From the IMG/VR virus record IMGVR_UViG_3300029535_000013: DNA of 41,169 bases, one strand, 5' to 3'. The notes beneath the pieces were generated by a model, which did no database searches, had not been told where the DNA came from, and worked only from the letters and a program-made list of their open reading frames with translations. The position numbers were made by a program, and so were the translations under genes. Source of the stretch: a virus. Shown here one piece after another: positions 15,404-35,168 of the stretch. Position 1 is the stretch's first letter. The number at the start of each line of letters is the position of its first letter.

Positions 15404-15742
15404 ATGACAGAAAAAGAGAGACTTGAAGATTTGCTCACAATGCATTGTTTTCTCAAAGAAAGAGGGCTCTCTATTGCAGAACAGGCAGAAAAAGATATTG
15501 AGGAAACCAAAAAGAAGCTCTTAACAATCGAGAGCTGCGGAGAAAAAGAAGTGCTGAGGAAAAAGTTTTTAGAGGAAGGAAAAGAAGCCACTAAAAACTT
15601 GCAAGCCCTTTGCGATTTGGTTTATGGCGAGGGTAGAGCAAAGGTTGAGATAACGGTATCGGTTGACGCGGATAAGCCGATATTCAGCAAAGAAGAGGTA
15701 GCTGTTATCAAAAAATGCTTGGATTTTCGCAAAGGAGAATAA
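15404..15742 (+). CDS. hypothetical protein (AT-rich insertion)
   Basis: 112 aa, K/E-rich, visibly lower GC than its neighbours. Confidence 0.55.
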   Translation: MTEKERLEDLLTMHCFLKERGLSIAEQAEKDIEETKKKLLTIESCGEKEVLRKKFLEEGKEATKNLQALCDLVYGEGRAKVEITVSVDADKPIFSKEEVAVIKKCLDFRKGE

Positions 15743-15744
15743 AT

Positions 15745-16122
15745 ATGAAAAAAATTTTTGCAGCAATCACGCTTTTGGCTGTGTTGCTTCTGTGCGGCTG
15801 CTCTGAGGCTGCCAAGGCGAACGCCAACATCTCAAAGCAGGCAGACTATTTCGAGAGCGAGCGCAAGATCACCGTCTACAACGCCCGCACGGATAAGGTC
15901 ATCATGGAAGCCGAGGGCTATATGTCCATTTCCAACAACTCGGACAACGAGCTGGTCTGCACTGTAAAAATCGGCCCGGACACCTACCGCAAGAATTACA
16001 TCTACCTGAACGACTACACCATGTATGTGGTGGAGGACATCACCGGCACCCATACAGACCCCTACCACTACAAGCTCTATTTCCACACCGACATCCTGCC
16101 CAGTGTGGAAACAAGGCCGTAA
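15745..16122 (+). CDS. putative lipoprotein
   Basis: MKKIFAAITLLAVLLLCGCSEA looks like a signal peptide with a lipobox-like LCGC. AAAGGAGAA RBS. Confidence 0.65.
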   Translation: MKKIFAAITLLAVLLLCGCSEAAKANANISKQADYFESERKITVYNARTDKVIMEAEGYMSISNNSDNELVCTVKIGPDTYRKNYIYLNDYTMYVVEDITGTHTDPYHYKLYFHTDILPSVETRP

Positions 16123-16168: not shown

Positions 16169-16245
16169 GCCGCTTTAGCTCAGGTTGGCAGAGCGCCGGA
16201 TTTGTAATCCGGGGGCCGTGGGTTCAAGCCCCACAGGCGGCACCA
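16169..16245 (+). tRNA. tRNA-Thr(UGU): tRNA-Thr (anticodon UGU), CCA encoded
   Basis: Acceptor GCCGCTT/AGGCGGC, D arm GCTC-AGGTTGGCA-GAGC, anticodon arm CCGGA-TTTGTAA-TCCGG, T arm GTGGG-TTCAAGC-CCCAC, discriminator A then CCA. Confidence 0.9.
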
Positions 16246-23364: not shown

Positions 23365-25019
23365 GTTACAAAGTCTATGCAGGCACCCAGACCGCCGTAG
23401 GCGTATGGGACACCAAAGCCTGCATCTATGACCCGACTGGCGAAGACCTGCGCACTACGGCTACGCTGCTCATCTCCCCGACTCTCACCCGTGAGGCCGG
23501 TAAGGCTGGCAGTTTTGAGTTTACACTCCCGCTGGGCAATGTTGCCCACTCGGCGCTGCAAAAGCTCAAGACCATTGTGGAGGTAGAGCAGGACGGCACG
23601 CCCATCTGGCGCGGGCGGGTCATGAGCCACGACATGGATTTTTACCTGAGACAAAAAGTGTACTGTGAGGGTGAGCTCGCGTATCTCAATGATACCGCGC
23701 TCACCCCTTATCGGTACCCAAATATCAGCATCCGGGAATTTTTGGAAAATGTCATCCGCAATCACAACAGCCAGACCGACAAATACAAAGCCTTTACGGT
23801 GGGCGATGTCACTGTTTTTGCAGAAGGCCCGCAGGAGAGCTTTCAGACGGTCTACATGCGCGGGTGCGTAGCAAAATACCATAGAGACAGCGACGACGAA
23901 GTCGACTATTGGCTAGAGGACGCTGACGGAAGATGGCTATGCGATACATCAAGTGACTATGATCTCCCAGCTGGGTACATTAACGGAGGCAGTGTGATAC
24001 GCATTGTCTCCAATGATGGCCGTGACCCTAGCAGCCCTTCCTATGTCACGACGTATACAGTGGAGCGAAACGTGGCCTACAAAAATGGCAATTTCTATTC
24101 ACTGAGTACTGTGCAGAAAGATTCGAAATACATCTACACCGTCGACACCACCCCGCTGGCGGGCTGGAGGCTGACCGATGATGGAGCGATTCAGCTCTAC
24201 AATCCCAGTACGGGAATATGGTCGGTCTGCACGGGTTACTATCTGCACGACTTCGACGCCTCGACCAACGAGGCCCTCGATTTTGGTGATGGCAAGAACT
24301 TCGGCACCACGTGGGACATCCTGCAATCCGAGCTGACGGACGTGTACGGCGGCTACCTTGTCGTGCGGTACTCAGACGACGGTAAAACGCGGTATCTGGA
24401 CTATCTTGCCGACGTAGCGGAGAGCAACACGCAGACGATCGAGTTTGGCGTAAATATGCTGGACCTCAATAACTATGTCAAGGCCGATAACATCGTCACC
24501 CGGGTCATCGCGGTAGGCTACCAGAAAAAAGGCTGGTGGATTTTTAAGAGTACCAAGACCATCCAGGAGCAGGCCGACGACAGAGCGGCACAGAGCTTCT
24601 ATGGTATTATCACCCGGGTCATTGTCATCGACGGTAAGTCGATTACAAGGCAAAAGCTGCTGGACGCTGCGAACGAAGAGCTCCGGAAAAATCTAAGATA
24701 CTATGATGGCATTGAGGTCAGCGCTATTGATTTGCGTGATGCAGGTATCAACACTGAGCGCCTGAGCTGGATGAAGAAGACCCGCATTATCTCAAAGCCT
24801 CACGGCATTGATACACCGTTGGTGTTGACCAAAATTGTCGAGCCGCTGGACGCGCCCGACAAGAAAAAGTTTACGTTTGGGACGAGTTTTTACTCTATCT
24901 CAGACCTGCAGGCCCTCAGCAGCCACAAAGCGTCTATGGCGTACAGTATCGCTTTAAGCTCTATGGGATACCTCAACGGCAATCCGATACCCACTACAAG
25001 CAAAACGTCAGCACAGTAA
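23361..25019 (+). CDS. tail-associated protein (Tal, prophage endopeptidase tail family N-terminal region)
   Basis: AGSFEFTLPL...IVEVEQDGTPIWRGRVMSH...VYCEGELAYLNDT matches the prophage tail endopeptidase pattern. Confidence 0.75.
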   Translation: MSYKVYAGTQTAVGVWDTKACIYDPTGEDLRTTATLLISPTLTREAGKAGSFEFTLPLGNVAHSALQKLKTIVEVEQDGTPIWRGRVMSHDMDFYLRQKVYCEGELAYLNDTALTPYRYPNISIREFLENVIRNHNSQTDKYKAFTVGDVTVFAEGPQESFQTVYMRGCVAKYHRDSDDEVDYWLEDADGRWLCDTSSDYDLPAGYINGGSVIRIVSNDGRDPSSPSYVTTYTVERNVAYKNGNFYSLSTVQKDSKYIYTVDTTPLAGWRLTDDGAIQLYNPSTGIWSVCTGYYLHDFDASTNEALDFGDGKNFGTTWDILQSELTDVYGGYLVVRYSDDGKTRYLDYLADVAESNTQTIEFGVNMLDLNNYVKADNIVTRVIAVGYQKKGWWIFKSTKTIQEQADDRAAQSFYGIITRVIVIDGKSITRQKLLDAANEELRKNLRYYDGIEVSAIDLRDAGINTERLSWMKKTRIISKPHGIDTPLVLTKIVEPLDAPDKKKFTFGTSFYSISDLQALSSHKASMAYSIALSSMGYLNGNPIPTTSKTSAQ

Positions 25020-25030
25020 AGGAGTAAATC

Positions 25031-26392
25031 ATGGCAAGTTTTGATGAGATCGTGAGCAAAATGACGGCAGCCATCAAGGGCGTCCGTGAGGCTGTGCTGG
25101 GCAAGGATGTGCGCGAGTTTATCGCCAGCGGCTATGAGAGCGTGCTGGATGCTTATAAGCAGCTTGATGGGAATGCGAAGCAGCTAAAGGAAAATGTGGC
25201 TGATATAAATAGTAGATTTTCAAGATACAATCTTTTTGATAAAGATACTGCAAGCATTGTAGATATAATGTGCAATGATTCTCTTGTATTTATTTCCCCT
25301 GGTGTGCAGTCTATAATTTGGAAATGCGAGCCAAATACTACATACACAATCTCGTGGACTGGTATTAGCGGTAACAACAGATACATTATTTATACTTCGA
25401 AGGAAAAGCCAATTGTTGATAAATTATCAAAGGCATTGCGAAAAATAGAGATGTCTAATACTGTTAGTGGTTCAAACAGACATTATACAACAATTACAAC
25501 AACGAGCGAAGAAAACTATCTCCTGCTGTATTTCTGGATGTACGCAAGTGGAGGTAATGCTACACTTGACACAATGCAGATTTCAACTGGAAATCGGTTG
25601 CTCGATTATGTTCCTTATTCGGACTACGAAATGCCAAATTTGAAACTTGTGCCACACCAGTTTGATGATATCACTATTAATATAACAAACTGCACTGATG
25701 AAATGGCAAACCTGTTGGGTCGCCGAAATCTTGGTGCATTGGACAAGGGATATATTTGCCTTGTTGCTGATGATGGATATGCAAAAGTCAGCAACGTTAC
25801 ATTTCCGATAGCTAAAGAAAAGAATATCCCAATCACACTTGCATTATGGACAGATTCTGAAGTTGTTACAAATCCAACATTGCTTGCAGAGCTAAGAACA
25901 ATGATTGCTAATAACAATATCGGAATATGCCAGCATGGTGTAGGGCGTTTTACAGATTATTCGCCTAAAGAACTTTACAATTATCTTATCAGCGAAAAAG
26001 ACAAATGGGTAAATCTTTCGCTAAATGTAGCGGGAGTTGCATATCCCAATCATAGCAGAAACGAGCAAGTTAGAACTATTTGCGGTGCATTATACGGTGT
26101 ATGTTGCAGTGGTGGTCCGACACGCCCTATGGTTTACTCGCATGACACAAACGGCGCAAGGTCAAATATTTTTGATTTATACAGGATATCATTATACAGC
26201 GAGAATGAAAACTATCTAAAGGGCGCTTGCGATTTTGCAAACTCAAATAAAAAATTGGTAATTATCTTTTGGCATGACAGTGATATTTATGGTGACGATG
26301 ACCAAATTAACAAATTGAAGAACGTAATAGATTATGCGAAAACTATCGGACTTACATTTGTAAATGTAGGAGATATTCCACTAATTAACTAA
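25031..26392 (+). CDS. receptor-binding / tail fibre protein with C-terminal polysaccharide deacetylase-like domain
   Basis: The GC-rich N-terminal anchor (about aa 1-55) is followed by an AT-rich body. Motifs ICLVADDGY, CQHG, VAYPNH and VIIFWHD resemble a NodB/CE4 fold. Confidence 0.65.
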   Translation: MASFDEIVSKMTAAIKGVREAVLGKDVREFIASGYESVLDAYKQLDGNAKQLKENVADINSRFSRYNLFDKDTASIVDIMCNDSLVFISPGVQSIIWKCEPNTTYTISWTGISGNNRYIIYTSKEKPIVDKLSKALRKIEMSNTVSGSNRHYTTITTTSEENYLLLYFWMYASGGNATLDTMQISTGNRLLDYVPYSDYEMPNLKLVPHQFDDITINITNCTDEMANLLGRRNLGALDKGYICLVADDGYAKVSNVTFPIAKEKNIPITLALWTDSEVVTNPTLLAELRTMIANNNIGICQHGVGRFTDYSPKELYNYLISEKDKWVNLSLNVAGVAYPNHSRNEQVRTICGALYGVCCSGGPTRPMVYSHDTNGARSNIFDLYRISLYSENENYLKGACDFANSNKKLVIIFWHDSDIYGDDDQINKLKNVIDYAKTIGLTFVNVGDIPLIN

Positions 26393-26434: not shown

Positions 26435-27235
26435 ATGCTGCACACCATCCTCAACTTCCTCGTTTCCCTCTTCTCCGCCCTCTCCCGGGCGGCAGATGCC
26501 TCTACCTCTGACCCGGTGTCCACGGTGGACACCCAAAGCGCTGCTCCTCCCGGCTGGGAGGGCGCACCACCCTACCGATACATCGACGTGAGCCGGTATC
26601 AGGGCAAAATTACCCTCGACGGCTGGCGCAAGGTCAAAGCGGCTGGCTACAAGGGCGTCATGCTCAAGACGGTCTCCACCAACCGCAAGCTCTCCAAGCG
26701 GGCAGACGGGCTGTACATCGACCCTACCTTTGAGACCAACTACCGCAACGCCCGGGCTGCCGGGCTGGACGTGGGCGTGTACTACTACACCTATGCTATC
26801 AGCCACACCGGCGCAGACAAAGAGCTGGCTCTGCTGGCAGACGCTCTGCGCGGCAAAGAGCTGACTCTGCCGGTGGCTGTAGACGTGGAGGACAACAAGC
26901 TCAAGCAGCTTGGCCGACAGGCTTTGACTGACCTGACAGCCTACGCTCTGGCCCGTATCGAGGCAATGGGATTTTATGCCCAGCTGTACACCTACACCAG
27001 CTTCGCCAACACCCACCTTTACATGGGCGGCGCGGCGCTGACCCCCTACGACGTGTGGCTGGCCGACTATACGGGCAAACCGCCTGCTGTTACCTTTAAG
27101 TACAACTCCCACCAGCACACCAGTAAGGGCGCTGTGCCGGGCATCTCCGGCAACGTAGACCTCAACGTGACCACCGTCAACTACCCCAAAATCATCCGTA
27201 AGAAGGGCCTGACCCGTCTCCGGGAGGGCGCATGA
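26435..27235 (+). CDS. GH25 muramidase endolysin with N-terminal signal sequence
   Basis: YIDVSRYQGKI...GVMLK...VGVYYYTYA...VAVDVEDN...GNVDLN matches the GH25 pattern. The N-terminus MLHTILNFLVSLFSALSRAADA is hydrophobic. Confidence 0.8.
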   Translation: MLHTILNFLVSLFSALSRAADASTSDPVSTVDTQSAAPPGWEGAPPYRYIDVSRYQGKITLDGWRKVKAAGYKGVMLKTVSTNRKLSKRADGLYIDPTFETNYRNARAAGLDVGVYYYTYAISHTGADKELALLADALRGKELTLPVAVDVEDNKLKQLGRQALTDLTAYALARIEAMGFYAQLYTYTSFANTHLYMGGAALTPYDVWLADYTGKPPAVTFKYNSHQHTSKGAVPGISGNVDLNVTTVNYPKIIRKKGLTRLREGA

Positions 27236-27841: not shown

Positions 27842-28072
27842 ATGGCAAGCACTACATACGAGCAAACGCCACGCTATTATTATGATCAGCGTGCGTACCC
27901 GATTTTGTGGCCCGCAGTGTGTGACCATTTTGCCAACGGCGGCAAAATGGGACATTACCGTGCCGTGACCGTTCGAGTGCGCAACGCCGGACAGCTGCCG
28001 CAGCCTTTTTGGCTCGGTGCTGCCTGTGGCGGCGGCTCGTGTAGTGCTGCCCGCTTCGCTGCAAGGACTTGA
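27842..28072 (+). CDS. hypothetical protein
   Basis: AAGGAG RBS. 76 aa. Overlaps the next ORF in another frame. Confidence 0.4.
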   Translation: MASTTYEQTPRYYYDQRAYPILWPAVCDHFANGGKMGHYRAVTVRVRNAGQLPQPFWLGAACGGGSCSAARFAART

Positions 28073-28082
28073 CCGACAGCAA

Positions 28083-28262
28083 ATGACCGCCGCAATCAAA
28101 AACGCACCGCTTGGGAGGGTAGACCGTAAGATAGCCTTACTGCGGTACGTTGAGCGGCTCCCGCTGCCGGACATTGCAGCACAGACCCATTACAGCCGGA
28201 CGGCGATAGGCTACCGGCTGAAAGTTATTGATGAAAAGCTAGACGAAAGGAGCTCACCGTGA
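28083..28262 (+). CDS. small sigma-70 region-4-like HTH protein
   Basis: DRKIALLRYVERLPLPDIAAQTHYSRTAIGYRLKVIDEKL. The start is uncertain (GTG 28017 or ATG 28083) and the RBS is weak. Confidence 0.45.
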   Translation: MTAAIKNAPLGRVDRKIALLRYVERLPLPDIAAQTHYSRTAIGYRLKVIDEKLDERSSP

Positions 28263-28551: not shown

Positions 28552-28989
28552 TTATTTGAGATATTCCCGCAGCGCCCGCAGGATGAGTTCGTTTCGGCTG
28601 CACTGCTCGGCATCTATCCGGGATGTCATCTTTTCGGCAAGCGGACCCGGGATGTAGATCGTTGCCTGTACATCCTTTGCGCCCTCGCTGCCAGCACCAA
28701 AGATGGCGTCGCACTGCTCCTCGCCGAGGTGCTCAAACGCCCACTTTTGCGCGATCTCATCGGAGAGAGGCACAATCTGCTCACCGGGAGCCGTCCATCC
28801 GTCACTACGTCGGACGGCGTATACAGTGGCTGCGTTGCCCATGCCGTAGATAAACCATTTGCCCGCCTTAGTGCGGTAAAGAGTCTCCTCACAGTGGTAA
28901 AAGCTGGTGTAGTCCTGGTCAGACTCCCAGTGTCCCATTTTTTTTGCGGTATCGGTGTCATAGCGAGAGCCGTTGATTATTTTGCGCAT
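28552..28989 (-). CDS. hypothetical protein with C-terminal ribbon-helix-helix (CopG/Arc-like) domain
   Basis: The C-terminus ATIYIPGPLAEKMTSRIDAEQCSRNELILRALREYLK fits the RHH pattern. The N-terminal 100 aa are of unknown family. Confidence 0.55.
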   Translation of the reverse strand: MRKIINGSRYDTDTAKKMGHWESDQDYTSFYHCEETLYRTKAGKWFIYGMGNAATVYAVRRSDGWTAPGEQIVPLSDEIAQKWAFEHLGEEQCDAIFGAGSEGAKDVQATIYIPGPLAEKMTSRIDAEQCSRNELILRALREYLK

Positions 28990-30086
28990 GGTGTATCCTC
29001 CGTGTTATCAAAGTTATCGTCGTCTGCGGTTTTGGGCGTGGGAAGCCCGGCCAGCTGCCACCCTTTATAGCTCGATGCCGGACGTGATTTTAAGCGAGTC
29101 CCCCGGATCGATGTGGCAATCGCCCTAAATCCTGCTGCGATCCTTTTTGCGGCAACGTCCTCTGGGATGTCGTCGTCAAAAAACAGCAAATGATTTTGAC
29201 GAGCCCAGTCTAACAGATTGACCGCCTTGTGAGTGTTGCCGTCCGGGTCAATCAACCTCCAAACGAGAGCCTCGCGATTTTGTGGGCCTTTTTGGCCTCC
29301 CGGCAGTTTTAGAGCCGCCGAAACACCTACTGACTGCAATGTCTGCATATGCGCCTGGGTCTCCGGGTCTGCTGTCCGGCGGGCCTTTGCCTCATCCGAC
29401 CATGCGGCATTGTTGATATGACCATTTTTTAGCCGCAGCGCAGCGCCGCATTTTTTTGAGCAGCATTGCTGGTTTACCTCACTGGGAGAGGCATAAAAAG
29501 GCTTGCCGCAGATGGCGCAGATCTTTTTTAGTGACTTGCCTTTATGGTCGGCAGTCTCCTGATCATACGGAGGCTGCTTTGAGGGCGCGACGGGTTGCTG
29601 GACGCGTCCGTCTTTTCTGTGCCGTCCTCGCTGGCAGCCGCAGCTCCTTGATAGTTTTACGGAGCTGTATGACATAACTCTATCATTGCCGCAAAGAGCG
29701 CAATGCACGACGACCATTGTGCATTTGTAGCCATCAGCCATGATTTTAGCCGGTGCCGTGCCGACGATGGAGAGATTGCCGAATGTTTTGCCAATCAGCC
29801 GGTCAGCAAGCGGCTCTTTGGGAGGCTTGGCGTCCGGCATCTTGGGCTTCGGAAGACCCGCAAGCGTCCACCCTTTATAAGTGCGCAGCCCGTGAGGTCT
29901 TTCCGGGTGCCGGAGCGCGTACCCCATCATCTGGACGCCCTCGGAGATCCGGGATGCGGCGTTGTCCGGTGCGGCATCCGGGAAAAACAATTTTACATTG
30001 TCCTGGCTCCACTTTGCCAGATCATCGACCTCGTGGCGCTCGCCATCCGGGCCGATGAGCACCCATGCGTACCCATGGGTGCTCAT
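28977..30086 (-). CDS. internally duplicated DNA-binding-like protein with central zinc-finger motifs
   Basis: aa 6-82 and 274-352 are clear repeats (W-L-I-PDG...LFF...YKGW-LAGLP-PK). The centre has CALCGN...SCGC and CAICGKPF...CCSKKCG. No nuclease motif seen. Confidence 0.6.
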   Translation of the reverse strand: MSTHGYAWVLIGPDGERHEVDDLAKWSQDNVKLFFPDAAPDNAASRISEGVQMMGYALRHPERPHGLRTYKGWTLAGLPKPKMPDAKPPKEPLADRLIGKTFGNLSIVGTAPAKIMADGYKCTMVVVHCALCGNDRVMSYSSVKLSRSCGCQRGRHRKDGRVQQPVAPSKQPPYDQETADHKGKSLKKICAICGKPFYASPSEVNQQCCSKKCGAALRLKNGHINNAAWSDEAKARRTADPETQAHMQTLQSVGVSAALKLPGGQKGPQNREALVWRLIDPDGNTHKAVNLLDWARQNHLLFFDDDIPEDVAAKRIAAGFRAIATSIRGTRLKSRPASSYKGWQLAGLPTPKTADDDNFDNTEDTPCAK

Positions 30087-30358
30087 TGCATCACCTCGAT
30101 GTCACAATCGACGGTGCAGTTTGGAGTCACGACATTGCCGTCCTCATCGACGGTGTAGTCGATGTCGCTGTTGGTGCCGTCAGCGTAGCTCTTGGCGTAA
30201 TCGGCCAGATACTCGACGTCCTCGACCTTGTAAGCGTCCAGATCGGCGTTGTACTCGAGGCCACCGGCCTCGAAGAAATCAGCCTCAAAGTGTGCGCCGT
30301 TGGCGGTATCGGTCATCTCGATGCTCAGGAGCTTGCTGCCATCATAAAACTTAGTCAT
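30083..30358 (-). CDS. small highly acidic protein (91 aa)
   Basis: 22 D/E against 4 K and 0 R by hand count. GGAGGA lies 8 nt upstream. It is the first gene after the consensus promoter. Confidence 0.6.
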   Translation of the reverse strand: MTKFYDGSKLLSIEMTDTANGAHFEADFFEAGGLEYNADLDAYKVEDVEYLADYAKSYADGTNSDIDYTVDEDGNVVTPNCTVDCDIEVMQ

Positions 30359-30404: not shown

Positions 30405-30433
30405 ATTATAGCATAAATAATTTATTTTGTCAA
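30405..30433 (-). promoter_or_regulatory. perfect consensus sigma-70-type promoter (TTGACA-17-TATAAT) for the minus-strand operon
   Basis: The minus strand reads TTGACA (30433-30428), a 17-nt spacer, then TATAAT (30410-30405). Confidence 0.75.
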
Positions 30434-30467
30434 CATTAAATTTGAGAAAATAAATTATTTATGCTAT
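30408..30467. repeat. perfect 21-bp inverted repeat (candidate operator) with 18-nt centre
   Basis: atagcataaataatttatttt at 30408-30428 is the exact reverse complement of 30447-30467. Confidence 0.9.
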
Positions 30468-30470: not shown

Positions 30471-30548
30471 TTTTGTCCTTCGTTGTGCGTTCGTTGTCTC
30501 TTGGCTCTCCCTAAAAAGGTAAACTGAGCGCAAAGGGAGGGAAGCCCC

Positions 30549-30926
30549 ATGTGGCACAAGTTTAACCCTAACCCCCACGGGAGCAGCGTCGGAGACTGTG
30601 CTGTGCGGGCGGTAGCAGCGGCCACCGGCCAGAGCTGGGAGCAAGCGTATATTGCACTTGCTCTCACTGGTTACGCCCTCGGCGATATGCCCAGCGCAAA
30701 CCGCACATGGGGCGCATACCTCCAAAAGCAGGGTTACAAGCGCCGAATGGTGGAAGCGGACTGCGCCACCTGTTACACCGTGGCAGATTTTGCCCGGGAG
30801 TACCCGCACGGCGTGTATGTACTGGGCTGCTCCGGCCACGTTCTGGCCGTCATCGACGGCAAGTGGTGGGACAGCTGGGACAGCGGCGCGGAATGCCCGA
30901 TCTACTACTGGTATAAGGAGGACTAA
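30549..30926 (+). CDS. hypothetical protein, possible papain-like Cys/His fold
   Basis: AAAGGGAGGGAAG RBS. Contains VGDCAVRAV and later GCSGHVLAVIDGKWWDSWDS. A peptidase role is inference only. Confidence 0.55.
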   Translation: MWHKFNPNPHGSSVGDCAVRAVAAATGQSWEQAYIALALTGYALGDMPSANRTWGAYLQKQGYKRRMVEADCATCYTVADFAREYPHGVYVLGCSGHVLAVIDGKWWDSWDSGAECPIYYWYKED

Positions 30927-30929
30927 ACG

Positions 30930-31379
30930 ATGCCGTACAATCCATATGGCTATCAAATGCCAAACTACTACGGGCAGCCTATGCCTGACCAGCTCACGCA
31001 GCTGCGGCAGAATGCCGGGTATCAGCCGCCCATGATGAGCCAACCGACAGGGCAAAGCTCCCCATCCACGCCTCCGATCATCTGGGTGCAGGGCGAAGAG
31101 GGCGCAAAAGCCTACATGGTAGCCGCCGGGAACAGCGTGCTCTTGATGGATAGCGAGAACAGCGCCTTTTACATCAAGAGCACGGACGCAAGCGGAATGC
31201 CGCTGCCGCTCAGGGCCTTTGATTACAAGGAGCGCACCACGGCAGCTAAGATGCCCGCTCAGGCCGTCCAACAGCCCGGCGGGGAGTTTGTCACCAGGGC
31301 AGAGTTTGACGCCCTGGCAGCCCGCTGTGCAGCGCTGGAAAAGCAGGAGCCCACAAAAACCGAAACGGAGGTCAAGTGA
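30930..31379 (+). CDS. hypothetical P/Y/Q-rich protein
   Basis: The N-terminus reads PYNPYGYQMPNYYGQPMPDQ. The core reads IIWVQGEEGAKAYMVAAGNSVLLMDSENSAFYIKS. The C-terminus is helical. Confidence 0.55.
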   Translation: MPYNPYGYQMPNYYGQPMPDQLTQLRQNAGYQPPMMSQPTGQSSPSTPPIIWVQGEEGAKAYMVAAGNSVLLMDSENSAFYIKSTDASGMPLPLRAFDYKERTTAAKMPAQAVQQPGGEFVTRAEFDALAARCAALEKQEPTKTETEVK

Positions 31380-31381
31380 TC

Positions 31382-31609
31382 ATGGCAAATCCTCTTTTTA
31401 ATGCACTGGGCGGCGGCAAAGCATCATCCATGCCCGGCCCTATGGGCCAGTTCGGCCAGATGATGCAGCAGTTCCAGCAGTTCAAGGCTAATTTTCAGGG
31501 CGATCCAAAGCAGGAGGTGCAAAAGCTCCTGCAATCCGGGCGGATGAGCCAAGACCAGCTCAACCAGCTTCAGGCAATGGCTCAGCAGTTCCAGCAGTTT
31601 TTACACTAA
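31382..31609 (+). CDS. hypothetical Q-rich small protein
   Basis: MANPLFNALGGG...MMQQFQQFKANFQGDPKQEVQKLLQSGRMSQDQLNQLQAMAQQFQQFLH. GTG 31376 is an alternative start. Confidence 0.55.
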   Translation: MANPLFNALGGGKASSMPGPMGQFGQMMQQFQQFKANFQGDPKQEVQKLLQSGRMSQDQLNQLQAMAQQFQQFLH

Positions 31610-31670
31610 GTCGTAACCGTGGCCACGGTCGAGATACACTTTTTATCAAAAATTTCGAAAGGAGTACAAA

Positions 31671-32423
31671 ATGTCTCTTTCTTCTGACAACATCGGCTTG
31701 ACTATGCCGGTGCAGCCCGCCAATACCAACAACGGCAACGGCTTTGGCTTTGGCGGCGATGGTTCGTGGTGGATCATCGTGCTCTTCCTTTTCATCTTCT
31801 GCGGCTGGGGCGGTAACTGGGGCGGCAATCGCGCCGGTGCCGGCGCCGGCGTCGTGGATGGCTACATCCTGACCAGCGACTTCGCCAACATCGAACGCAA
31901 GATCGATGGCGTAAACAACGGTATGTGTGACGGCTTCTACCAGCAGGCACAGCTCATCAACGGCGTCCAGCAGACCGTGAGTAACGGCTTCATGTCCGCC
32001 GAGATCAGCCGTGCAAATCAGCAGGCCGCTTTCATGCAGCAGCTGTTTGCTATGCAGATGCAGGCACAGGATTGCTGCTGCGAGACCCGGTCTGCTATCC
32101 AGGGCGTCAACTACAATCTGGCTACCCAGTCCTGCGAGACCCGGAACACTGTGCAGAACGCGACCCGGGACATCGTAGACAACCAGAACCAGAACGCCCG
32201 GGCTATCCTGGACGCTCTCACAGCTCAGCGCATCGAGGCAAAGGACGCCAAGATTGCGGAGCAGAGCCAGCAGCTCTTTGCGGCCCAGCTCGCGGCCTCT
32301 CAGGCAGCCCAGAATAACTATCTGCTGAACCAGCTGCGGCCTACGCCCATCCCGGCTTATGCATCCTGCAACCCGTGGGCATCTGGCTCTTACGCCGGTT
32401 GCGGATGCGGCAGCTGCGCATAA
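31671..32423 (+). CDS. hypothetical single-pass membrane protein, G/N-rich N-terminus, Q/N-rich and Cys-rich C-terminal region
   Basis: TM segment WWIIVLFLFIFCGWGG. Contains DCCCETRS and SCETRN. Ends CNPWASGSYAGCGCGSCA. AAAGGAG RBS. Confidence 0.6.
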   Translation: MSLSSDNIGLTMPVQPANTNNGNGFGFGGDGSWWIIVLFLFIFCGWGGNWGGNRAGAGAGVVDGYILTSDFANIERKIDGVNNGMCDGFYQQAQLINGVQQTVSNGFMSAEISRANQQAAFMQQLFAMQMQAQDCCCETRSAIQGVNYNLATQSCETRNTVQNATRDIVDNQNQNARAILDALTAQRIEAKDAKIAEQSQQLFAAQLAASQAAQNNYLLNQLRPTPIPAYASCNPWASGSYAGCGCGSCA

Positions 32424-32514
32424 CCGAATCACGACAGCTTTTTGAGTGGTTGTTTCCAAAATGGAAATTCCCACATCAAAATGTTCAGCCCCTGAGCTGA
32501 TTTTGCAAACCAGA

Positions 32515-32543
32515 GCGCCGGGGCCGCAGTCCCGGCGTTTTTT
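32515..32543 (+). terminator. intrinsic terminator or attenuator inside the accessory operon
   Basis: Stem GCGCCGGG/CCCGGCGT, loop GCCGCAGT, then TTTTTT. It lies about 18 nt before the next ATG. Confidence 0.7.
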
Positions 32544-32561
32544 ATGAAAGGAGTCGATAAA

Positions 32562-32984
32562 ATGGCCGAATTTAGCAACTCTAACACCGTCAGTGTGGCA
32601 GCGGGTGAAAACCTTCCCCTGACCGAGACCGCGGTAAAAGCCCCTGCCTGCATCATGCACCGTGAGGGCAGCGGCCTCGTGACCCTGCGCGGTCTGACCA
32701 ATCAATGCAAAGCGCGCTTCAAGGTAAGCTTTGGCGGCAATATTGCCATTTCCACCGGCGGCACTGTGGGACCCATTTCCGTGGCGCTGGCTGTCGGCGG
32801 TGAGGCACTCAATAGCGCAACCGCCATTGTCACACCTGCTGCAGTCGAAAACTACTTCAATGTTTTTGTGGCAGCGTTCATCGAGGTGCCGCGCGGCTGC
32901 TGCGTGACTGTGGCGGCTAAGAACACCAGCGCGCAGGCGGTCAGCATTGCAAACAGCAACCTGATCGTTGAGCGGGTAGCATAA
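32562..32984 (+). CDS. BclA C-terminal-domain-like (C1q/TNF-like jelly-roll) protein, no collagen repeats
   Basis: GSGLVTLRG...ISVALAVGGEAL...RGCCVTVAAKN...ANSNLIVERVA. The ending resembles the BclA ending ...IIIEKVA. Assigned from memory of the family, not searched. Confidence 0.5.
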   Translation: MAEFSNSNTVSVAAGENLPLTETAVKAPACIMHREGSGLVTLRGLTNQCKARFKVSFGGNIAISTGGTVGPISVALAVGGEALNSATAIVTPAAVENYFNVFVAAFIEVPRGCCVTVAAKNTSAQAVSIANSNLIVERVA

Positions 32985-33000
32985 GAAAGGAGATAAAGCC

Positions 33001-33402
33001 ATGCTGGATAAACTGAACCATCTGAAAGATGAAATGTGCGACGAGCTCATGGAGCTGACCGACAAAAAGAACCGTTCCCCGGGCGATGTTGAGATGATCG
33101 GCGAGATCGTGGACATCATTCTGGACATCCACCGCATTGCGGACTACTGCGAGGGCGGCGAGTACAGCCGAACAGGCGAGTGGGAAGCTGACATGCGCGG
33201 GACTTTCGGCCACGATGCCGGAAACGGTTACAACCGGGGCAACAGCTATGCCAACCGTGGCCGACACTATGTCCGCGGCCACTACTCCCGCACGGATGGC
33301 CGGGAGCGCATGATCTCCGACATCGAGGACATGATGCAGGACGCCACCGGCGCAGAGCGAGACGCTTACAAACGCGCGGCGGACATTCTGCGCAACGCAT
33401 AA
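33001..33402 (+). CDS. hypothetical protein with basic G/Y/R/S-rich centre
   Basis: AAAGGAG RBS. Contains NGYNRGNSYANRGRHYVRGHYSRTDG flanked by acidic helices. Confidence 0.5.
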   Translation: MLDKLNHLKDEMCDELMELTDKKNRSPGDVEMIGEIVDIILDIHRIADYCEGGEYSRTGEWEADMRGTFGHDAGNGYNRGNSYANRGRHYVRGHYSRTDGRERMISDIEDMMQDATGAERDAYKRAADILRNA

Positions 33403-33420
33403 GGGAGGAGGGTGGCAAGT

Positions 33421-33753
33421 ATGGACATCGACGAGATTAACACCCATATCCACAAGCTGAAATGCGGTTCAACGGACTGGCAGAGCGTGGAGAAGCTTGC
33501 CGCTCTCTGCACTGTGAGAAATGAGCTGGAAGAAAAGCAGGCACCGGCGGAAATGCAGACTCAAGCGCTGCCTCCCACGTCGTACCCGGCGGCATACTCC
33601 ACAAAAGCAAATCCACAAAGCGAGTTCGTGGAAGCGGCCAGCGCCGCGCCATTTGGTGGCTTAATGGAAGTGCTTGATGAGCACATGAGCGCCATAAAGC
33701 TTGCATACCCGAAAGAGTATGAGTTGGTCATGCGGAAGATAACCGCATTGTAA
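33421..33753 (+). CDS. hypothetical protein
   Basis: ATG lies about 9 nt after GGGAGGAGGG. 110 aa. Last gene before attP. Confidence 0.5.
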   Translation: MDIDEINTHIHKLKCGSTDWQSVEKLAALCTVRNELEEKQAPAEMQTQALPPTSYPAAYSTKANPQSEFVEAASAAPFGGLMEVLDEHMSAIKLAYPKEYELVMRKITAL

Positions 33754-33874
33754 AACGACACAAAATGTGTTATTTTTACATGCAGCCAAAACTTGAAAAG
33801 CTAAATTTTTAAGCTTAATAAACTAACACGTGACTAACAAGTTTGACTTTATTATCGATAAAACGTAAAATAAA

Positions 33875-33924
33875 ACTGATTTGTAATCAGTGGGTTGCAG
33901 GTTCAACTCCTGTCACCAGCTCCA
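33875..33924 (+). other. attP core: 3' half of a tRNA-Thr(UGU) gene (anticodon arm to CCA)
   Basis: ACTGA-TTTGTAA-TCAGT, then GGGTT, then GCAGG-TTCAACT-CCTGT, then CACCAGC-T-CCA. No matching 5' acceptor or D arm upstream. It lies 110 nt from the 3' end of the integrase gene. Confidence 0.75.
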
Positions 33925-33930
33925 AAAATA

Positions 33931-33974
33931 AACGCACGAACGATAAAAACAAATCGTCCGTGCGTTTTTCTTTT
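33931..33974 (+). terminator. intrinsic terminator following the tRNA fragment
   Basis: 14-bp stem AACGCACGAACGAT/ATCGTCCGTGCGTT with one mismatch, an 8-nt loop, then TTTTTCTTTT. Confidence 0.7.
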
Positions 33975-34034: not shown

Positions 34035-35168
34035 TCAATACTTCATCTTTTGCATTTCCCGCAACAGATAATCCGGGTCATTGTGGGAGACGTACTTGTT
34101 GGCCGTGGTGGAGAAATTTTTGTGACCCAAGATGGCCTGTACGGCGGTCTTTTCCAGGCCGCACTCCACCATCTTGCTACTGGCCGTGTGGCGCAGCGTA
34201 TGCGGATGCACCCCCTCTATGTGGCACTCCTGCATCAAGGCCCGAAACTTTGTAGCCACGTTGCGCTTGTCCAGCTTTGTACCGGCTTTGGACGGTATCA
34301 GCCACTCACAGCCGCTGTCAAGCATCCAAAAGGCAATGATTTTATAAATGGGGTCCAAAATAGGGATAATGCGGTTTTTGCCCGCCTCGGTCTTTTCGCC
34401 GCCCTGCATATACCGCTCTTTTAGATGCACATCGTCGCAGCGCATGGAGAGCAGCTCATCGATACGCATACCGGTGTAGAGCAGCACCATTGCGATTTGT
34501 GCTGTCTGCCCAAGCTTCGGGTCGTCTTGTCGGCTGCTTATCTGCTCGATCTCCTGAGCGGTCAAGGTTCGCTCTGCCTTGCCTGTAGCCGCTGGGAGCT
34601 GCAAGAGCATGGCATAGTTTTTGTTTATGATGTCCTGAGCCATTGCCCACTCACAGATCTGGCTGAAAAGTGTGCGCTGCTTTTCGCAGGAGCTGCGGGA
34701 GAGGCCCTTTTCCACCATCTGGTCAATCACCTGTTGATAGTCTGCGGCTTTTAAGTCCCGGAGCTGTCGGTCATACAGCGGCGCAGCCTTTGCATAGGCC
34801 AGCTCATAACCCTTTTTCATATCAGTGCTGAGCTTGTCAAATTTGGGCTGCGCTTTCCATTGGGCATAGGCATCCGCAAAAGTACATTTCAGACGCGCTG
34901 CGGGGGTGTTCTGGGCGTTGTAAGCGTCCAGTGCTTGTACTGCTTCACCCGGCGTCGCAAACGTCCCCAGAACGTCTCGCTTGGCTGTCAGGGCCACATA
35001 CGGTTTTGACCTCGTCCCGCTCAACTTATATACACTGCCGCTGCCCTTTGGGCGGCGGCGCTTTTTTCTTTGCTGCGGGGCGGCTTCGGGCTGCTTCTTT
35101 CCGCAGTATGGGCAAAAAGATGCATCATCCGGTATTTCCCGACGGCAGCAGGCGCGAATGCACTTCAA
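34035..35168 (-). CDS. int: tyrosine integrase with N-terminal zinc ribbon
   Basis: HPHTLRHTASS...LGHKNFSTTANKYVH-type catalytic region. The N-terminus reads CCRREIPDDASFCPYCG. Confidence 0.9.
   Translation of the reverse strand: MKCIRACCRREIPDDASFCPYCGKKQPEAAPQQRKKRRRPKGSGSVYKLSGTRSKPYVALTAKRDVLGTFATPGEAVQALDAYNAQNTPAARLKCTFADAYAQWKAQPKFDKLSTDMKKGYELAYAKAAPLYDRQLRDLKAADYQQVIDQMVEKGLSRSSCEKQRTLFSQICEWAMAQDIINKNYAMLLQLPAATGKAERTLTAQEIEQISSRQDDPKLGQTAQIAMVLLYTGMRIDELLSMRCDDVHLKERYMQGGEKTEAGKNRIIPILDPIYKIIAFWMLDSGCEWLIPSKAGTKLDKRNVATKFRALMQECHIEGVHPHTLRHTASSKMVECGLEKTAVQAILGHKNFSTTANKYVSHNDPDYLLREMQKMKY

What the first reader, a model, noticed from the sequence alone, without database searches (positions are those of the whole stretch)
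30549..33753. Seven-gene cargo operon next to attP encoding low-complexity, Cys-rich and BclA-C-terminal-domain-like proteins: possible surface or spore-coat-type assembly module of unknown function
This operon lies between the lysis genes and attP, the classic slot for lysogenic conversion genes. Its seven genes, all with good RBSs, are as follows.
- **Gene 1 (125 aa):** a conserved Cys (VGDC) and His (SGHV), possibly a papain-like fold.
- **Gene 2:** a P/Y/Q-rich protein (PYNPYGYQMPNYYGQPMP) with a compact core.
- **Gene 3 (about 75 aa):** a Q-rich protein with QQFQQF motifs.
- **Gene 4 (250 aa):** a G/N-rich N-terminus, one TM segment, a long Q/N-rich region with duplicated C(CC)ETR motifs, and a CNPW...GCGCGSCA tail.
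- **Gene 5 (140 aa):** after an internal terminator or attenuator at 32515-32543. Its pattern and ...NLIVERVA ending recall the C1q/TNF-like C-terminal domain of the exosporium protein BclA. It has no collagen repeats and no signal peptide.
- **Gene 6:** a protein with a basic G/Y/R/S-rich centre (RGRHYVRGHYSR).
- **Gene 7 (110 aa):** no recognisable features.

Only gene 4 has a membrane segment and none has an obvious secretion signal. The composition (Q/N-rich, Cys-rich, BclA-like head) resembles self-assembling coat or exosporium components made in the cytoplasm. My hypothesis is that the prophage remodels a cell or spore surface layer, or builds another proteinaceous assembly. This is speculative. 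I recognise no described system with this gene set.
Basis: inference. Interest (0 to 1): 0.8.

Follow-up and report, generated by a model that had tools for sequence, protein, structure and literature searches.

The report
Mobile seven-gene phage cassette, BclA-like
The seven genes are real and form a very widespread, conserved cassette in gut Clostridia phages that contains a protein folded like the anthrax spore-surface protein BclA, but the host here (Faecalibacterium) makes no spores and the same cassette sits in integrase-less phages and inside head-gene clusters, so it is probably a late lytic-cycle assembly module of unknown purpose rather than a spore-coat or lysogenic-conversion cargo.

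Summary
Observation confirmed. Seven co-oriented genes with Shine-Dalgarno sites lie at 30549-33753. All are under purifying selection and co-occur in the same order in at least 80 of 84 related contigs.

- Gene 5 models (pLDDT 96) as a TNF/C1q jelly roll. Its best PDB matches are F-BclA, ExsF/BxpB and BclA C-terminal domains.
- Gene 1 has a conserved Cys-His-Asp arrangement and only weak papain/C39-like fold matches.

- The host lineage is Faecalibacterium, which is non-sporulating.
- The complete cassette is also in the cultured Butyrivibrio phage Ceridwen, which has no integrase and has only been seen growing lytically.
- In at least 7 related phages it lies between the minor capsid protein and the scaffold/major capsid genes. 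One of these is a temperate phage whose lysin-integrase slot is almost empty.

The cassette travels with a small sigma-70-region-4-like gene. It keeps a hairpin/U-tract between gene 4 and slot 5. It occurs as strongly divergent alleles in one phage backbone and is occasionally deleted.

Best reading: a self-contained, mobile, late-expressed cassette building a membrane-anchored, Cys-rich protein assembly. Its function is unknown and no described system matches.

The parts
28017..28262 (+). Small sigma-70 region-4-like HTH gene (81 aa). Likely the cassette's own transcription regulator.
   Evidence: PHROG 'transcriptional regulator/sigma factor' hits are weak. The homologue in L083 hits Pfam Sigma70_r4 at E 5.9e-8. 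It is present upstream on the same strand in 78 of 82 related loci, 110-3308 nt from g1. It also lies next to the cassette in Ceridwen, L088, L090 and L092.
28552..30358 (-). Minus-strand insertion: a 145-aa ORF, a 369-aa HNH-like ORF and a 91-aa ORF. NOT part of the cassette. It occupies a variable cargo hot spot between the regulator and g1.
   Evidence: The HNH-like and 91-aa genes are found in only 5 and 4 of 84 loci. PHROG HNH endonuclease hits are weak. Other loci carry different minus-strand genes here.
30408..30467 (.). 26-nt inverted repeat (96% complementary, 8-nt spacer) overlapping a perfect TTGACA-17-TATAAT promoter for the minus-strand insertion.
   Evidence: (context).
30512..30548 (+). 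Conserved leader just upstream of g1: AAAAAGGTA(A/C)ACTG.GCGCAAAGGGAGGG, comprising a -10-like element plus the RBS.
   Evidence: Alignment of about 64 distinct upstream regions. This stretch is conserved while the sequence 5' of it varies.
30549..30926 (+). g1, 125 aa: small papain-like (Cys17-His97-Asp108) putative peptidase or amidase. Loosely associated with the cassette.
   Evidence: The AF2 model has pLDDT 95.6, with Cys17 at the N-terminus of a helix and His97 at the start of a strand. D16, H97 and D108 are invariant and C17 is conserved in at least 90% of 92 homologues. Foldseek hits are only weak but are mostly to C39 peptidase domains, plus other papain-like enzymes (Josephin-2, USP5) and Tae4 (E 0.15-1.3). 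It matches phrog_3754. The family also occurs alone in Bacillus, Geobacillus, Pseudomonas and Lak phages.
30930..31379 (+). g2, 149 aa: P/Y/Q-rich N-terminus, a small beta-rich core (IWVQGE...FYIK...DYKER) and a C-terminal helix.
   Evidence: phrog_21718. Alignment A3 across 15 divergent cassettes. No Pfam or PDB match.
31382..31609 (+). g3, 74 aa (77 from GTG 31376): Q/M-rich helical protein.
   Evidence: phrog_22984. Found by iterative search in 82 of 84 loci. It co-varies with g2 and g4 as allelic blocks.
31671..32423 (+). g4, 250 aa: the signature gene. It has a conserved N-terminal peptide (MSLSSD..LTMPVQPAN), a Gly-rich flanked hydrophobic segment, a long Q/N-rich helical region with CCC and C.TR motifs, and a Pro-rich (P.PAY) and Cys-rich (GCGCGSCA) tail.
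   Evidence: phrog_16490. There are 1613 clusters at 50% identity; the 150 best-scoring representatives listed are mostly 220-300 aa with no longer multi-domain members. 69 full-length members scanned have no consistent Pfam family. The PDB profile search gave only coiled-coil noise. Conserved islands between alleles are shown, and hydrophobicity.
32424..32561 (+). Structured intergenic RNA with three hairpins. The last (32515-32543) is followed by a U-run and acts as an intrinsic terminator or attenuator just before the g5 RBS.
   Evidence: The fold gives z = -5.0. A hairpin plus U-run is at the same place in 8 of 9 divergent cassettes, with different sequences. No Rfam family matches.
32562..32984 (+). 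g5, 140 aa: stand-alone TNF/C1q-like jelly roll of the BclA-CTD/ExsF type. Conserved Cys49 and Cys113-Cys114.
   Evidence: AF2 pLDDT 96.2, all-beta. Foldseek PDB matches: 9h38 F-BclA CTD at E 3e-7 (TM 0.68-0.77 across its chains), then ExsF 9h3d, BxpB 8d02, ExsFA 7r1m and BclA 1wck/2r6q. BFVD holds similar stand-alone phage proteins, two of them labelled 'BclA protein'. The most conserved gene, with dN/dS 0.10.
33001..33402 (+). g6, 133 aa: acidic helical N-terminal part, a basic R/G/Y/S-rich disordered centre and a C-terminal helix.
   Evidence: Found in 81 of 84 loci. The architecture is kept in Ceridwen, L087, L090 and L092. No family match.
33421..33753 (+). g7, 110 aa (113 from GTG 33412): helical protein with a conserved C-terminal ...DE.M..I....P..Y..VMRKI motif.
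   Evidence: Found in 80 of 84 loci. The homologue in Ceridwen scores E 6.6e-21. No family match.
33857..33926 (+). attP core: the 3' part of tRNA-Thr(UGU). Context, not part of the cassette.
   Evidence: The integrated form L146 has an intact tRNA-Thr. Homology to prophage-state contigs stops at 33853-33874.
33930..33967 (.). Strong 15-bp hairpin flanked by A/T runs, acting as a bidirectional terminator between the cassette/attP and the integrase.

Best explanation
**What it is (well supported).** The seven genes belong to a self-contained, horizontally mobile gene cassette of siphoviruses infecting gut and rumen Clostridia. Here the phage is a temperate Faecalibacterium phage that integrates into tRNA-Thr.

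The core of the cassette is:
- a small sigma-70-region-4-like regulator
- g2
- g3
- g4
- a slot-5 protein, here the BclA-CTD/TNF-like g5
- g6
- usually g7

The papain-like g1 is a loosely attached extra. The cassette lies either after the lysis genes or inside the head-gene cluster, always co-oriented with the late genes, in both temperate and integrase-less phages. Its adjacency to attP in this window is incidental.

**How it most likely works (inferred).** It is expressed late in the lytic cycle under its own regulator. The g4-g5 hairpin/U-tract would set the ratio of g1-g4 to g5-g7.

None of g2-g7 looks like an enzyme. They are low-complexity, coiled-coil, Cys-rich or jelly-roll proteins, as expected for building blocks. 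I propose they co-assemble into a membrane-anchored proteinaceous structure:
- g4 is anchored by its Gly-flanked hydrophobic segment. It forms a helical stalk with conserved Pro-rich and Cys-rich termini.
- g5 forms a trimeric hub or head that docks Pro-rich peptides in its inter-subunit clefts, as the stand-alone TNF-like trimer ExsF does with exosporium leader peptides.
- g2 and g3 co-vary with g4 as allelic blocks and are its direct partners or chaperones.
- g6 and g7 bind the conserved g5 side.
- g1 may process one component.
- Conserved cysteines could cross-link the assembly once it is released by lysis.

What the structure is for remains unknown.
For: **Unit and reality**
- The gene order is the same in at least 80 of 84 loci.
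- All seven genes are under purifying selection.

**Mobility and independence from lysogeny**
- The full set is in the cultured phage Ceridwen, which has no integrase and has only been seen growing lytically.
- L098 has no integrase nearby.
- The cassette has a head-cluster position in Dulem 35 (a temperate phage with an almost empty lysin-integrase slot), bajarodcaudo 2 and five MT83xxxx records.
- It lies after the integrase in Dulem 39 and after the receptor-binding protein in Dulem 36.

**Autonomy from the virion**
- g5 identity does not follow major-capsid-protein identity.
- One backbone carries allele A, allele B or a third, very divergent cassette.

**Own regulation**
- The sigma-r4-like gene travels with the cassette.
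- The hairpin/U-tract before slot 5 is conserved in position.

**Building-block nature**
- There are no Pfam, NCBIfam or PADLOC enzyme or defence domains.
- g5 has a TNF-like fold at pLDDT 96, with exosporium proteins as its top matches.
- The slot-5 protein of L158 matches BclA by sequence.

**Docking analogy**
- ExsF binds a Pro-rich leader peptide at its trimer interfaces (PMC12357932).
- The g4 positions most conserved across its family (69 representatives) include three C-terminal prolines. Between alleles A and B the conserved islands include the N-terminal LTMPVQPAN and C-terminal P.PAY...GCGSCA peptides, together with the central CCC region.

**Host**
- The host is Faecalibacterium.
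Against: - There is no direct evidence on timing of expression, localisation, oligomeric state or any protein-protein contact. Multimer modelling was not available.
- The Pro-rich g4 tail is also conserved in cassettes whose slot-5 protein is a different, Cys-rich protein. It therefore need not be a g5-docking peptide.
- The hydrophobic segment of g4 might not be a membrane anchor.
- Natural deletion variants exist (L133 lacks g2-g6, L068 lacks g1-g4). The structure is thus dispensable, or those are defective prophages.
- A position next to attP with a dedicated regulator, a leader and a flanking terminator is also what a moron expressed in lysogens would look like.
- The g1 fold assignment is statistically weak.
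Confidence: 0.4

Rival explanations
1. Virion-associated accessory module. Under this reading the proteins are capsid or neck decorations, fibres or ejected proteins made with the structural genes. g5 would be a trimeric knob like those on phage fibres and spikes.
For: - The cassette lies between the minor capsid protein and the scaffold/major capsid genes in at least 7 records.
- It is co-oriented with the late genes everywhere.
- It is retained in an apparently virulent phage.
- TNF-like knobs occur in the phage phi812 central spike, the cyanophage A4 tail and the A-1(L) tail fibre, and in many BFVD phage proteins.
- Homing-endonuclease genes have inserted into or beside the cassette three times.
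Against: - g5 similarity does not track capsid similarity. Major capsid protein 75% identical goes with g5 36-60%, while major capsid protein 38-40% goes with g5 62-73%.
- The same backbone accepts three very different cassettes and also deletions.
- A dedicated regulator and terminator are unusual for structural genes.
- g4 carries a membrane-type hydrophobic segment.
- There is no sequence relation to the phage's own tail or receptor-binding proteins.
Confidence: 0.2
2. Lysis or egress accessory acting at the envelope. g4 (N-terminal anchor, coiled coil, Cys- and Pro-rich tip) would work like a spanin or 'disruptin' together with the partner proteins. It would help release from Clostridia with unusual, Gram-negative-staining walls, or control lysis timing.
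For: - The commonest position is directly after the endolysin, XhlA-like and holin genes.
- In Dulem 35 the cassette is accompanied by an XhlA-like protein and a small membrane protein even inside the head cluster.
- The g4 architecture resembles the i-spanin Rz: membrane anchor, coiled coil and cysteines (established knowledge of lambda Rz/Rz1).
Against: - The hosts are monoderm Firmicutes without an outer membrane, so there is no second membrane to fuse.
- A jelly-roll trimer and Q-rich proteins have no precedent in lysis.
- In bajarodcaudo 2 the cassette is 12 kb away from the endolysin.
- There is no sequence or profile similarity to any lysis protein.
Confidence: 0.13
3. One reading: lysogenic-conversion cargo that remodels the spore or cell surface of the lysogen.
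For: - The cassette is adjacent to attP in this window.
- It has a dedicated regulator, a conserved leader and a terminator on its attP side.
- The best structural matches of g5 are exosporium proteins.
- One distant relative (L083) sits next to cotJA-cotJB of a spore-former.
- Allelic diversity is typical of host-interaction genes.
Against: - The host lineage is Faecalibacterium, a non-spore-former.
- All seven genes are in integrase-less, lytically growing Ceridwen on Butyrivibrio.
- The cassette lies inside head clusters, including in a temperate phage whose attP-side slot is almost empty.
- No signal peptides are evident from the sequences, so only g4 can reach the surface.
Confidence: 0.1
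4. Superinfection-exclusion, anti-phage defence or counter-defence module located in a phage accessory hot spot.
For: - Strongly divergent alleles and deletions occur at one locus in near-identical backbones.
- A variable cargo region lies next to it.
- It has a membrane protein plus a putative peptidase.
Against: - There are no PADLOC hits.
- No nuclease, ATPase, NTase or sensor domains were found.
- Seven structural-type proteins under strong purifying selection is not the pattern of known defence systems.
- The cassette is present in a virulent phage and in head clusters.
Confidence: 0.1

Closest known systems
ExsF/BxpB (ExsFA) and the BclA C-terminal domain of the Bacillus cereus-group exosporium (PDB 9h3d, 8d02, 7r1m, 1wck; Pfam PF18573)
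   Same: - g5 is a roughly 140-aa all-beta TNF/C1q-like jelly roll (TM 0.72-0.77 to most of these entries).
- Like ExsF/BxpB, it is stand-alone, with no collagen region.
- It is made without a signal peptide and is accompanied by Cys-rich partners.
- The slot-5 protein of the variant cassette L158 matches BclA chains by sequence (E 3.6e-5).
   Different: - Identity is only 10-13%. The window's g5 has no Pfam BclA_C hit.
- There is no exosporium leader, no collagen repeats and no ExsY/CotY-type neighbours.
- It is encoded by phages of non-sporulating hosts, so it cannot be an exosporium component here.
TNF-like knob domains of phage fibres and spikes (phi812 central spike 9eul, cyanophage A4 9k09, A-1(L) short tail fibre 8ke9) and stand-alone 'BclA protein' ORFs of gut metagenomic phages
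   Same: They share the same fold class. The BFVD proteins are also 130-145 aa and stand-alone, from sipho-, podo- and myovirus MAGs. A homologue of g5 is already labelled 'MAG: BclA' in GenBank (UWD64661.1).
   Different: g5 is not fused to a fibre shaft. It is not in the tail module and is unrelated in sequence to this phage's own tail proteins. None of the stand-alone phage proteins has a known function.
Morons / lysogenic-conversion cassettes downstream of the lysis genes of temperate Gram-positive phages
   Same: In this window the position is between the lysis genes and attP. It has a regulator upstream and a terminator on its attP side, and it is dispensable in rare natural deletion variants.
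   Different: It is found in integrase-less phages and inside head-gene clusters. It comprises seven co-evolving genes rather than a single toxin or exclusion gene, and it has no secretion signals.
C39 / papain-like cysteine peptidase domains (ComA, PCAT1, LahT)
   Same: g1 has its Cys at the N-terminus of a helix, followed by His and Asp on beta strands. The best, though weak, fold matches are mostly C39 domains.
   Different: - It is much smaller (125 aa) and has no transporter.
- It has no significant sequence or fold score.
- No conserved double-glycine site is present in its neighbours. For example, Ceridwen g3 lacks GG.
Spanins (lambda Rz/Rz1)
   Same: g4 has an N-terminal anchor, a long helical region, cysteines and a Pro-rich end, and is usually encoded next to lysis genes.
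   Different: The hosts have no outer membrane. There is no homology and no lipoprotein partner.

Membership tests
BclA_C / TNF-C1q-like superfamily (Pfam PF18573) | All-beta jelly-roll with TNF-like topology | tested here: met
   The AF2 model has pLDDT 96.2 with ten strands. Foldseek PDB gives E 3e-7 to 6e-6 and TM 0.68-0.78 against the F-BclA, ExsF, BxpB, ExsFA and BclA CTD entries, followed by TNF ligands.
BclA_C / TNF-C1q-like superfamily (Pfam PF18573) | Sequence match to the family model above the curated cut-off | tested here: not met
   g5 has no Pfam hit at E <= 1, and its profile finds no PDB relative. The slot-5 protein of the variant cassette L158 scores 22 bits (E 1.4e-4) against a cut-off of 38. 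It does match BclA chains by phmmer at E 3.6e-5.
BclA_C / TNF-C1q-like superfamily (Pfam PF18573) | Homotrimer | not testable with these tools
   Only monomer prediction was available.
BclA proper (exosporium nap glycoprotein) | N-terminal exosporium leader plus collagen-like GXY repeats before the C-terminal domain | tested here: not met
   g5 is 140 aa and is entirely the jelly roll. NCBIfam, which includes the TIGR03720 leader, gives no hit.
ExsF/BxpB exosporium basal-layer protein | Stand-alone TNF-like protein of about 150 aa | tested here: met
   Matches to 9h3d, 8d02 and 7r1m have TM 0.69-0.77 over the whole length.
ExsF/BxpB exosporium basal-layer protein | Made by a spore-former and incorporated in an exosporium | tested here: not met
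   The host lineage is Faecalibacterium, which is non-spore-forming (PMC5690339). The cassette is also in a phage of Butyrivibrio.
Papain-like / C39 cysteine peptidase (g1) | Conserved Cys (at helix N-terminus), His and Asp/Asn | tested here: met
   H97 and D108 are invariant and C17 is conserved in at least 90% of 92 homologues.
Papain-like / C39 cysteine peptidase (g1) | Significant fold or profile similarity to a known member | tested here: inconclusive
   The best Foldseek hits are C39 domains and Josephin, but at E 0.15-1 and TM 0.42-0.48. There are no Pfam, NCBIfam or PDB-profile hits.
Lysogenic-conversion moron | Located at the prophage end next to att, with a dedicated regulator upstream and a terminator on its attP side | tested here: met
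   (this window).
Lysogenic-conversion moron | Confined to temperate phages / to accessory slots | tested here: not met
   Counter-examples are Ceridwen, L098, bajarodcaudo 2, Dulem 35 in its head cluster and five more records.
Lysogenic-conversion moron | Expressed in the uninduced lysogen | not testable with these tools
   No expression data are available.
Known anti-phage defence systems (PADLOC-DB) | Match to any model of a known or candidate defence protein | tested here: not met
   0 hits for all seven proteins at E <= 0.1.
Sigma-70 region 4 HTH (regulator 28017-28262) | Match to Sigma70_r4 | tested here: inconclusive
   The homologue in L083 hits PF04545 at E 5.9e-8 (32.6 bits against a cut-off of 24.1). 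The window copy has only weak PHROG hits, E 2.5e-4.

The most novel reading that the evidence does not exclude
Phages of non-sporulating gut Clostridia may carry an exosporium-like building kit. The kit would comprise a stand-alone BclA/ExsF-type trimer, a membrane-anchored coiled-coil protein with Pro- and Cys-rich docking ends, and Q-rich and Cys-rich partners, all under its own sigma-like regulator. The phage would use it late in infection to build a cross-linkable protein layer or fibre on something other than a spore. Candidate targets are the membrane or the vesicles released at lysis, cell debris, or the progeny particles. The result would be a nap-like or occlusion-like coat that affects phage persistence, aggregation or re-adsorption in the gut.
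Probability: 0.15. Interest if true: 0.85.

Novelty: new variant of a known kind. Interest (0 to 1): 0.6.

Why it matters
- **Abundance.** Homologues of g5 alone fill at least 7918 clusters at 90% identity, some with more than a thousand members. The host, Faecalibacterium, is one of the most abundant human gut bacteria. An unexplained seven-gene module fixed in its dominant prophages is therefore a sizeable gap in gut phage biology.
- **Fold in a new setting.** The cassette shows that the BclA/ExsF fold, so far studied on spore surfaces, is used by phages of non-sporulating hosts.
- **A tractable system.** The cassette is present in a cultured phage-host pair, Ceridwen on Butyrivibrio fibrisolvens DSM 3071. 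Its function is therefore directly testable.
- **A caution for annotation.** Position next to attP does not by itself identify lysogenic-conversion cargo.

Tried and rejected
- **Family searches.** Pfam, NCBIfam and PADLOC searches on all seven proteins and on divergent homologues found nothing significant. PHROGs gave only 'unknown function' families.
- **PDB sequence and profile searches** for g1, g2, g4 and g5 gave nothing, or only coiled-coil noise.
- **Is g5 a copy of the phage's own receptor-binding head?** No similarity to the Tal or putative receptor-binding proteins.
- **Does g1 cleave a double-glycine leader in g3?** Rejected: the GG is not conserved where g1 is present, for example in Ceridwen.
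- **GerQ/transglutaminase-substrate idea for the Q-rich proteins.** No Spore_GerQ or Tgl similarity was found.
- **Similarity of g3, g6 or g7 to A-ENA 'sporesilk' hairpins.** This was only a lead from PMC13111695. These three proteins were not searched against the PDB, so it remains untested and I did not pursue it.
- **Sporulation-sigma promoters upstream of g1 and g5.** No convincing match by eye.
- **RNAalifold on the g4-g5 spacer.** It failed because the sequences are too divergent to align. The hairpins are seen sequence by sequence instead. Rfam found nothing there.
- **Host assignment from source names.** 'Alistipes putredinis', 'Bacteroidales' and 'Collinsella' labels on some records were rejected as mis-binning. 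Grounds for rejection are the strong Shine-Dalgarno sites, a sigma-70 type promoter, and exact Faecalibacterium flank proteins.
They have no PDB or Pfam match.

Full report
**1. The observation**

The window is a 41-kb temperate siphovirus genome. Its layout is:
- tail genes (Dit 22858, Tal 23361, a 453-aa low-GC putative receptor-binding protein at 25031)
- endolysin, 26435-27235
- an XhlA-like gene and a holin-like gene
- a small sigma-r4-like gene, 28017-28262
- a minus-strand HNH-type insertion, 28552-30358
- seven + strand genes, 30549-33753
- an attP core
- a minus-strand integrase, 34035-35168

Three start codons need adjusting:
- g5 starts at 32562 (140 aa)
- g3 probably starts at 31382
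- g7 probably starts at 33421

The hairpin/U-run at 32515-32549 exists. The attP core is the 3' part of tRNA-Thr(UGU). An integrated relative, L146, has an intact tRNA-Thr at the junction.

**2. The genes are real and form a unit**

In 84 related contigs the genes occur in the same order. Iterative searches find g1-g4 in 82 contigs, g5 in 84, g6 in 81 and g7 in 80. The shortfalls are contig ends, short or divergent contigs, plus one deletion.

Pairwise dN/dS is 0.10-0.27, and 0.50 for g4, a value inflated by comparisons between alleles.

The families are large:
- at least 7918 clusters at 90% identity for g5
- 1613 clusters at 50% identity for g4; the 150 best-scoring representatives listed are mostly 220-300 aa with no longer multi-domain members, and 69 full-length members scanned have no consistent Pfam family

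**3. What the proteins look like**

- Pfam, NCBIfam and PADLOC give nothing significant. PHROGs gives five 'unknown function' families.
- **g5.** Modelled with a diverse alignment (A1), g5 is an all-beta protein with pLDDT 96.2.
  - Its best PDB matches are the F-BclA C-terminal domain (9h38, E 3e-7; TM 0.68-0.77 across its chains), ExsF (9h3d), BxpB (8d02), ExsFA (7r1m) and the BclA C-terminal domain (1wck, 2r6q, 3tyj).
  - These are followed by TNF-family ligands and phage spike or fibre knobs.
  - In BFVD the nearest neighbours are stand-alone 130-145-aa proteins of gut phage MAGs, two of them labelled 'BclA protein'. One g5 homologue is already labelled 'MAG: BclA' in GenBank.
- **g1.** The model has pLDDT 95.6, with Cys17 at the N-terminus of a helix and His97 and Asp108 on strands. 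H97 and D108 are invariant and C17 is conserved in at least 90% of 92 homologues. Fold matches are weak (E 0.15-1, TM 0.42-0.48) but are mostly C39 peptidase domains or other papain-like enzymes.
- **g4.** It has a conserved N-terminal peptide, a Gly-flanked hydrophobic segment, a long helical Q/N-rich region with CCC and C.TR motifs, and a Pro- and Cys-rich tail.
- **g2, g3, g6 and g7** have no detectable relatives of known structure or function.

**4. Host**

A close relative (g5 87% identical) is integrated in a 262-kb scaffold next to smpB and rmuC. The exact sequences of those two genes are Faecalibacterium proteins.

The integrated form with this window's own integrase (97% identical) is flanked by proteins recorded from F. 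prausnitzii MAGs.

F. prausnitzii is non-spore-forming (PMC5690339). The spore-coat/exosporium reading therefore fails for this phage.

Only one distant relative (L083) sits in a spore-former, right next to cotJA-cotJB.

**5. The cassette is not tied to attP or to lysogeny**

- All seven genes, in order, are in the cultured Butyrivibrio virus Ceridwen, after its lysin and a sigma-r4-like gene. Ceridwen has no integrase or excisionase and was only seen to grow lytically (PMC7372960).
- L098 has the cassette followed by replication genes, with no integrase nearby.
- In Dulem virus 35 and bajarodcaudo virus 2 the cassette lies between the portal/minor capsid genes and the scaffold/major capsid genes.
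- Dulem 35 is temperate, and its own lysin-integrase slot holds only two tiny ORFs.
- By coordinates, five more records have g4 and g5 about 2 kb upstream of the major capsid gene: MT835997, MT839484, MT839772, MT835516 and MT835739. Their capsid proteins are 59-78% identical to this window's.
- Other positions also occur: after the integrase (Dulem 39), after the receptor-binding protein (Dulem 36), and after a holin and C39_2-type lysin (bajarodcaudo 5).

In all cases the cassette is co-oriented with the late genes.

**6. The cassette is autonomous and variable**

- **The regulator travels with it.** The sigma-r4-like gene accompanies the cassette in Ceridwen, L083, L088, L090 and L092, and is upstream in 78 of 82 close relatives. 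The 110-3308 nt between it and g1 is a hot spot for varied minus-strand cargo. This window's HNH-type insertion is found in only 5 of 84 loci.
- **Alleles differ in one backbone.** Within near-identical backbones, g2-g3-g4 occur as two alleles (about 52% identity for g2, about 42% for g4), while g1, g5 and g6 stay mostly 86-98% identical.
- **A third version exists.** One backbone with 95% integrase identity (L158) carries a very divergent cassette. Its slot-5 protein matches BclA chains by sequence (phmmer E 3.6e-5; Pfam BclA_C E 1.4e-4, below the cut-off).
- **Slot 5 can hold a different protein.** In L088, L089 and L090, slot 5 holds an unrelated 127-139-aa Cys-rich protein.
- **g5 does not follow the capsid.** g5 similarity does not track capsid similarity. 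This argues against a protein that must fit the capsid lattice.
- **Deletion variants exist.** L133 lacks window positions 30744-33557, and L068 lacks g1-g4.
- **g1 is a separate family.** It also occurs alone in many unrelated phages.
- **The spacer hairpin is conserved.** A hairpin plus U-run precedes slot 5 in 8 of 9 divergent cassettes, with different sequences. In the window the spacer folds with z = -5.0. No Rfam family matches.

**7. Mechanism**

Shown:
- It is a conserved, mobile, self-contained cassette with a regulator gene that travels with it and an internal attenuator-like element.
- It contains a BclA/ExsF-type jelly roll and a protein with a membrane-type hydrophobic segment.
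- It is present in temperate and apparently virulent phages of non-sporulating Clostridia.

Inferred:
- It is expressed late in the lytic cycle.
- Its non-enzymatic, low-complexity, coiled-coil and Cys-rich proteins co-assemble.

The most concrete proposal is as follows. g4 is a membrane-anchored stalk. Its conserved Pro-rich ends dock into the clefts of a g5 trimer, as exosporium leader peptides dock into ExsF (PMC12357932). g2 and g3 are partners of g4, because they co-vary with it. g6 and g7 are partners of g5. The purpose of the assembly is unknown.

Rivals are a virion accessory, a lysis/egress accessory, lysogenic conversion of the cell surface, and exclusion or defence. They are weighed in their own sections of this report.

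**8. Comparison, novelty and score**

- No described system has this gene set.
- Only g5 can be placed, at the fold level, in the TNF/C1q-BclA_C superfamily. It fails the sequence threshold and lacks the features that define BclA itself.
- I rate the finding a new variant of a known kind: a BclA/ExsF-type building block used in a phage cassette. Its function is unknown.
- Interest is 0.6. The cassette is abundant, is clearly under selection, is unexplained, and is testable in a cultured system. However, the attractive spore-surface story is not supported, and the mechanism is still inference.

Noticed in passing
window 16169-16245 and 33857-33926: The phage carries its own complete tRNA-Thr(UGU) gene in the head-gene region. 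It also integrates into the host tRNA-Thr(UGU) gene, since the attP core is the 3' part of that tRNA. A tRNA-Trp gene lies at 8852-8927.
   Followed up: partly
window 15715-16122: A 135-aa ORF with a lipoprotein-type signal (MKKIFAAITLLAVLLLCGC...) sits between the minor head protein and the scaffold gene. This is exactly the slot where related phages carry the cassette. It may be a moron, for example an exclusion lipoprotein.
   Followed up: no
window 28552-30358 (minus strand) and 30408-30467: An inserted minus-strand unit comprises a 145-aa ORF, a 369-aa HNH-like protein with duplicated N- and C-terminal domains, and a 91-aa acidic protein. It is driven by a perfect TTGACA-17-TATAAT promoter embedded in a 26-nt inverted repeat. 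It is present in only 4-5 of 84 related loci. HNH-type endonuclease genes are also inserted inside the cassette in Dulem 33 (between g3 and g4) and in Ceridwen (between g5 and g6).
   Followed up: partly
L088:6734-7153, L089:6597-6980, L090:6767-7171: In some divergent cassettes, slot 5 holds a 127-139-aa Cys-rich, beta-looking protein in place of the TNF-like protein. Its N-terminus reads MAC....GCGGC or MACKPICKLC, which is reminiscent of the Cys-rich N-terminal connectors of endospore-appendage subunits.
   Followed up: partly
L158:8411-10690 (minus strand): A phage with the same integrase (95% identity) carries a third, very divergent version of the cassette in the same slot. Its slot-5 protein matches B. 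anthracis BclA chains by sequence (E 3.6e-5).
   Followed up: yes
L083:8323-9467: In a Eubacteriales MAG the cassette ends about 140 bp from host cotJB-cotJA on the opposite strand, with no cotJC visible. The prophage may lie within or beside the cotJ operon of a spore-former.
   Followed up: partly
L133 (junction at window 30743/33558) and L068: Two natural deletion variants exist. One removes the region from mid-g1 to mid-g7. The other removes everything from the regulator's 3' side to the end of g4, while keeping the hairpin region and g5-g7.
   Followed up: yes
window 25001-26000: GC drops to 0.39, against about 0.55 elsewhere, inside the 453-aa ORF after Tal. This ORF is the putative receptor-binding protein and has no PHROG hit. 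The drop suggests a recently exchanged host-recognition module.
   Followed up: no
window 9223-10437: A 404-aa ORF is 49-56% identical to the DNA modification methylases of Streptococcus, Lactobacillus and Vibrio phages. It sits just upstream of the packaging genes.
   Followed up: no
window 31671-31730 and homologues: The first 18 or so residues of g4 (MSLSSD..LTMPVQPAN) are almost identical between alleles that are otherwise only about 40% identical. The motif is recognisable in Ceridwen and Dulem 33, which suggests a docking or processing signal.
   Followed up: partly
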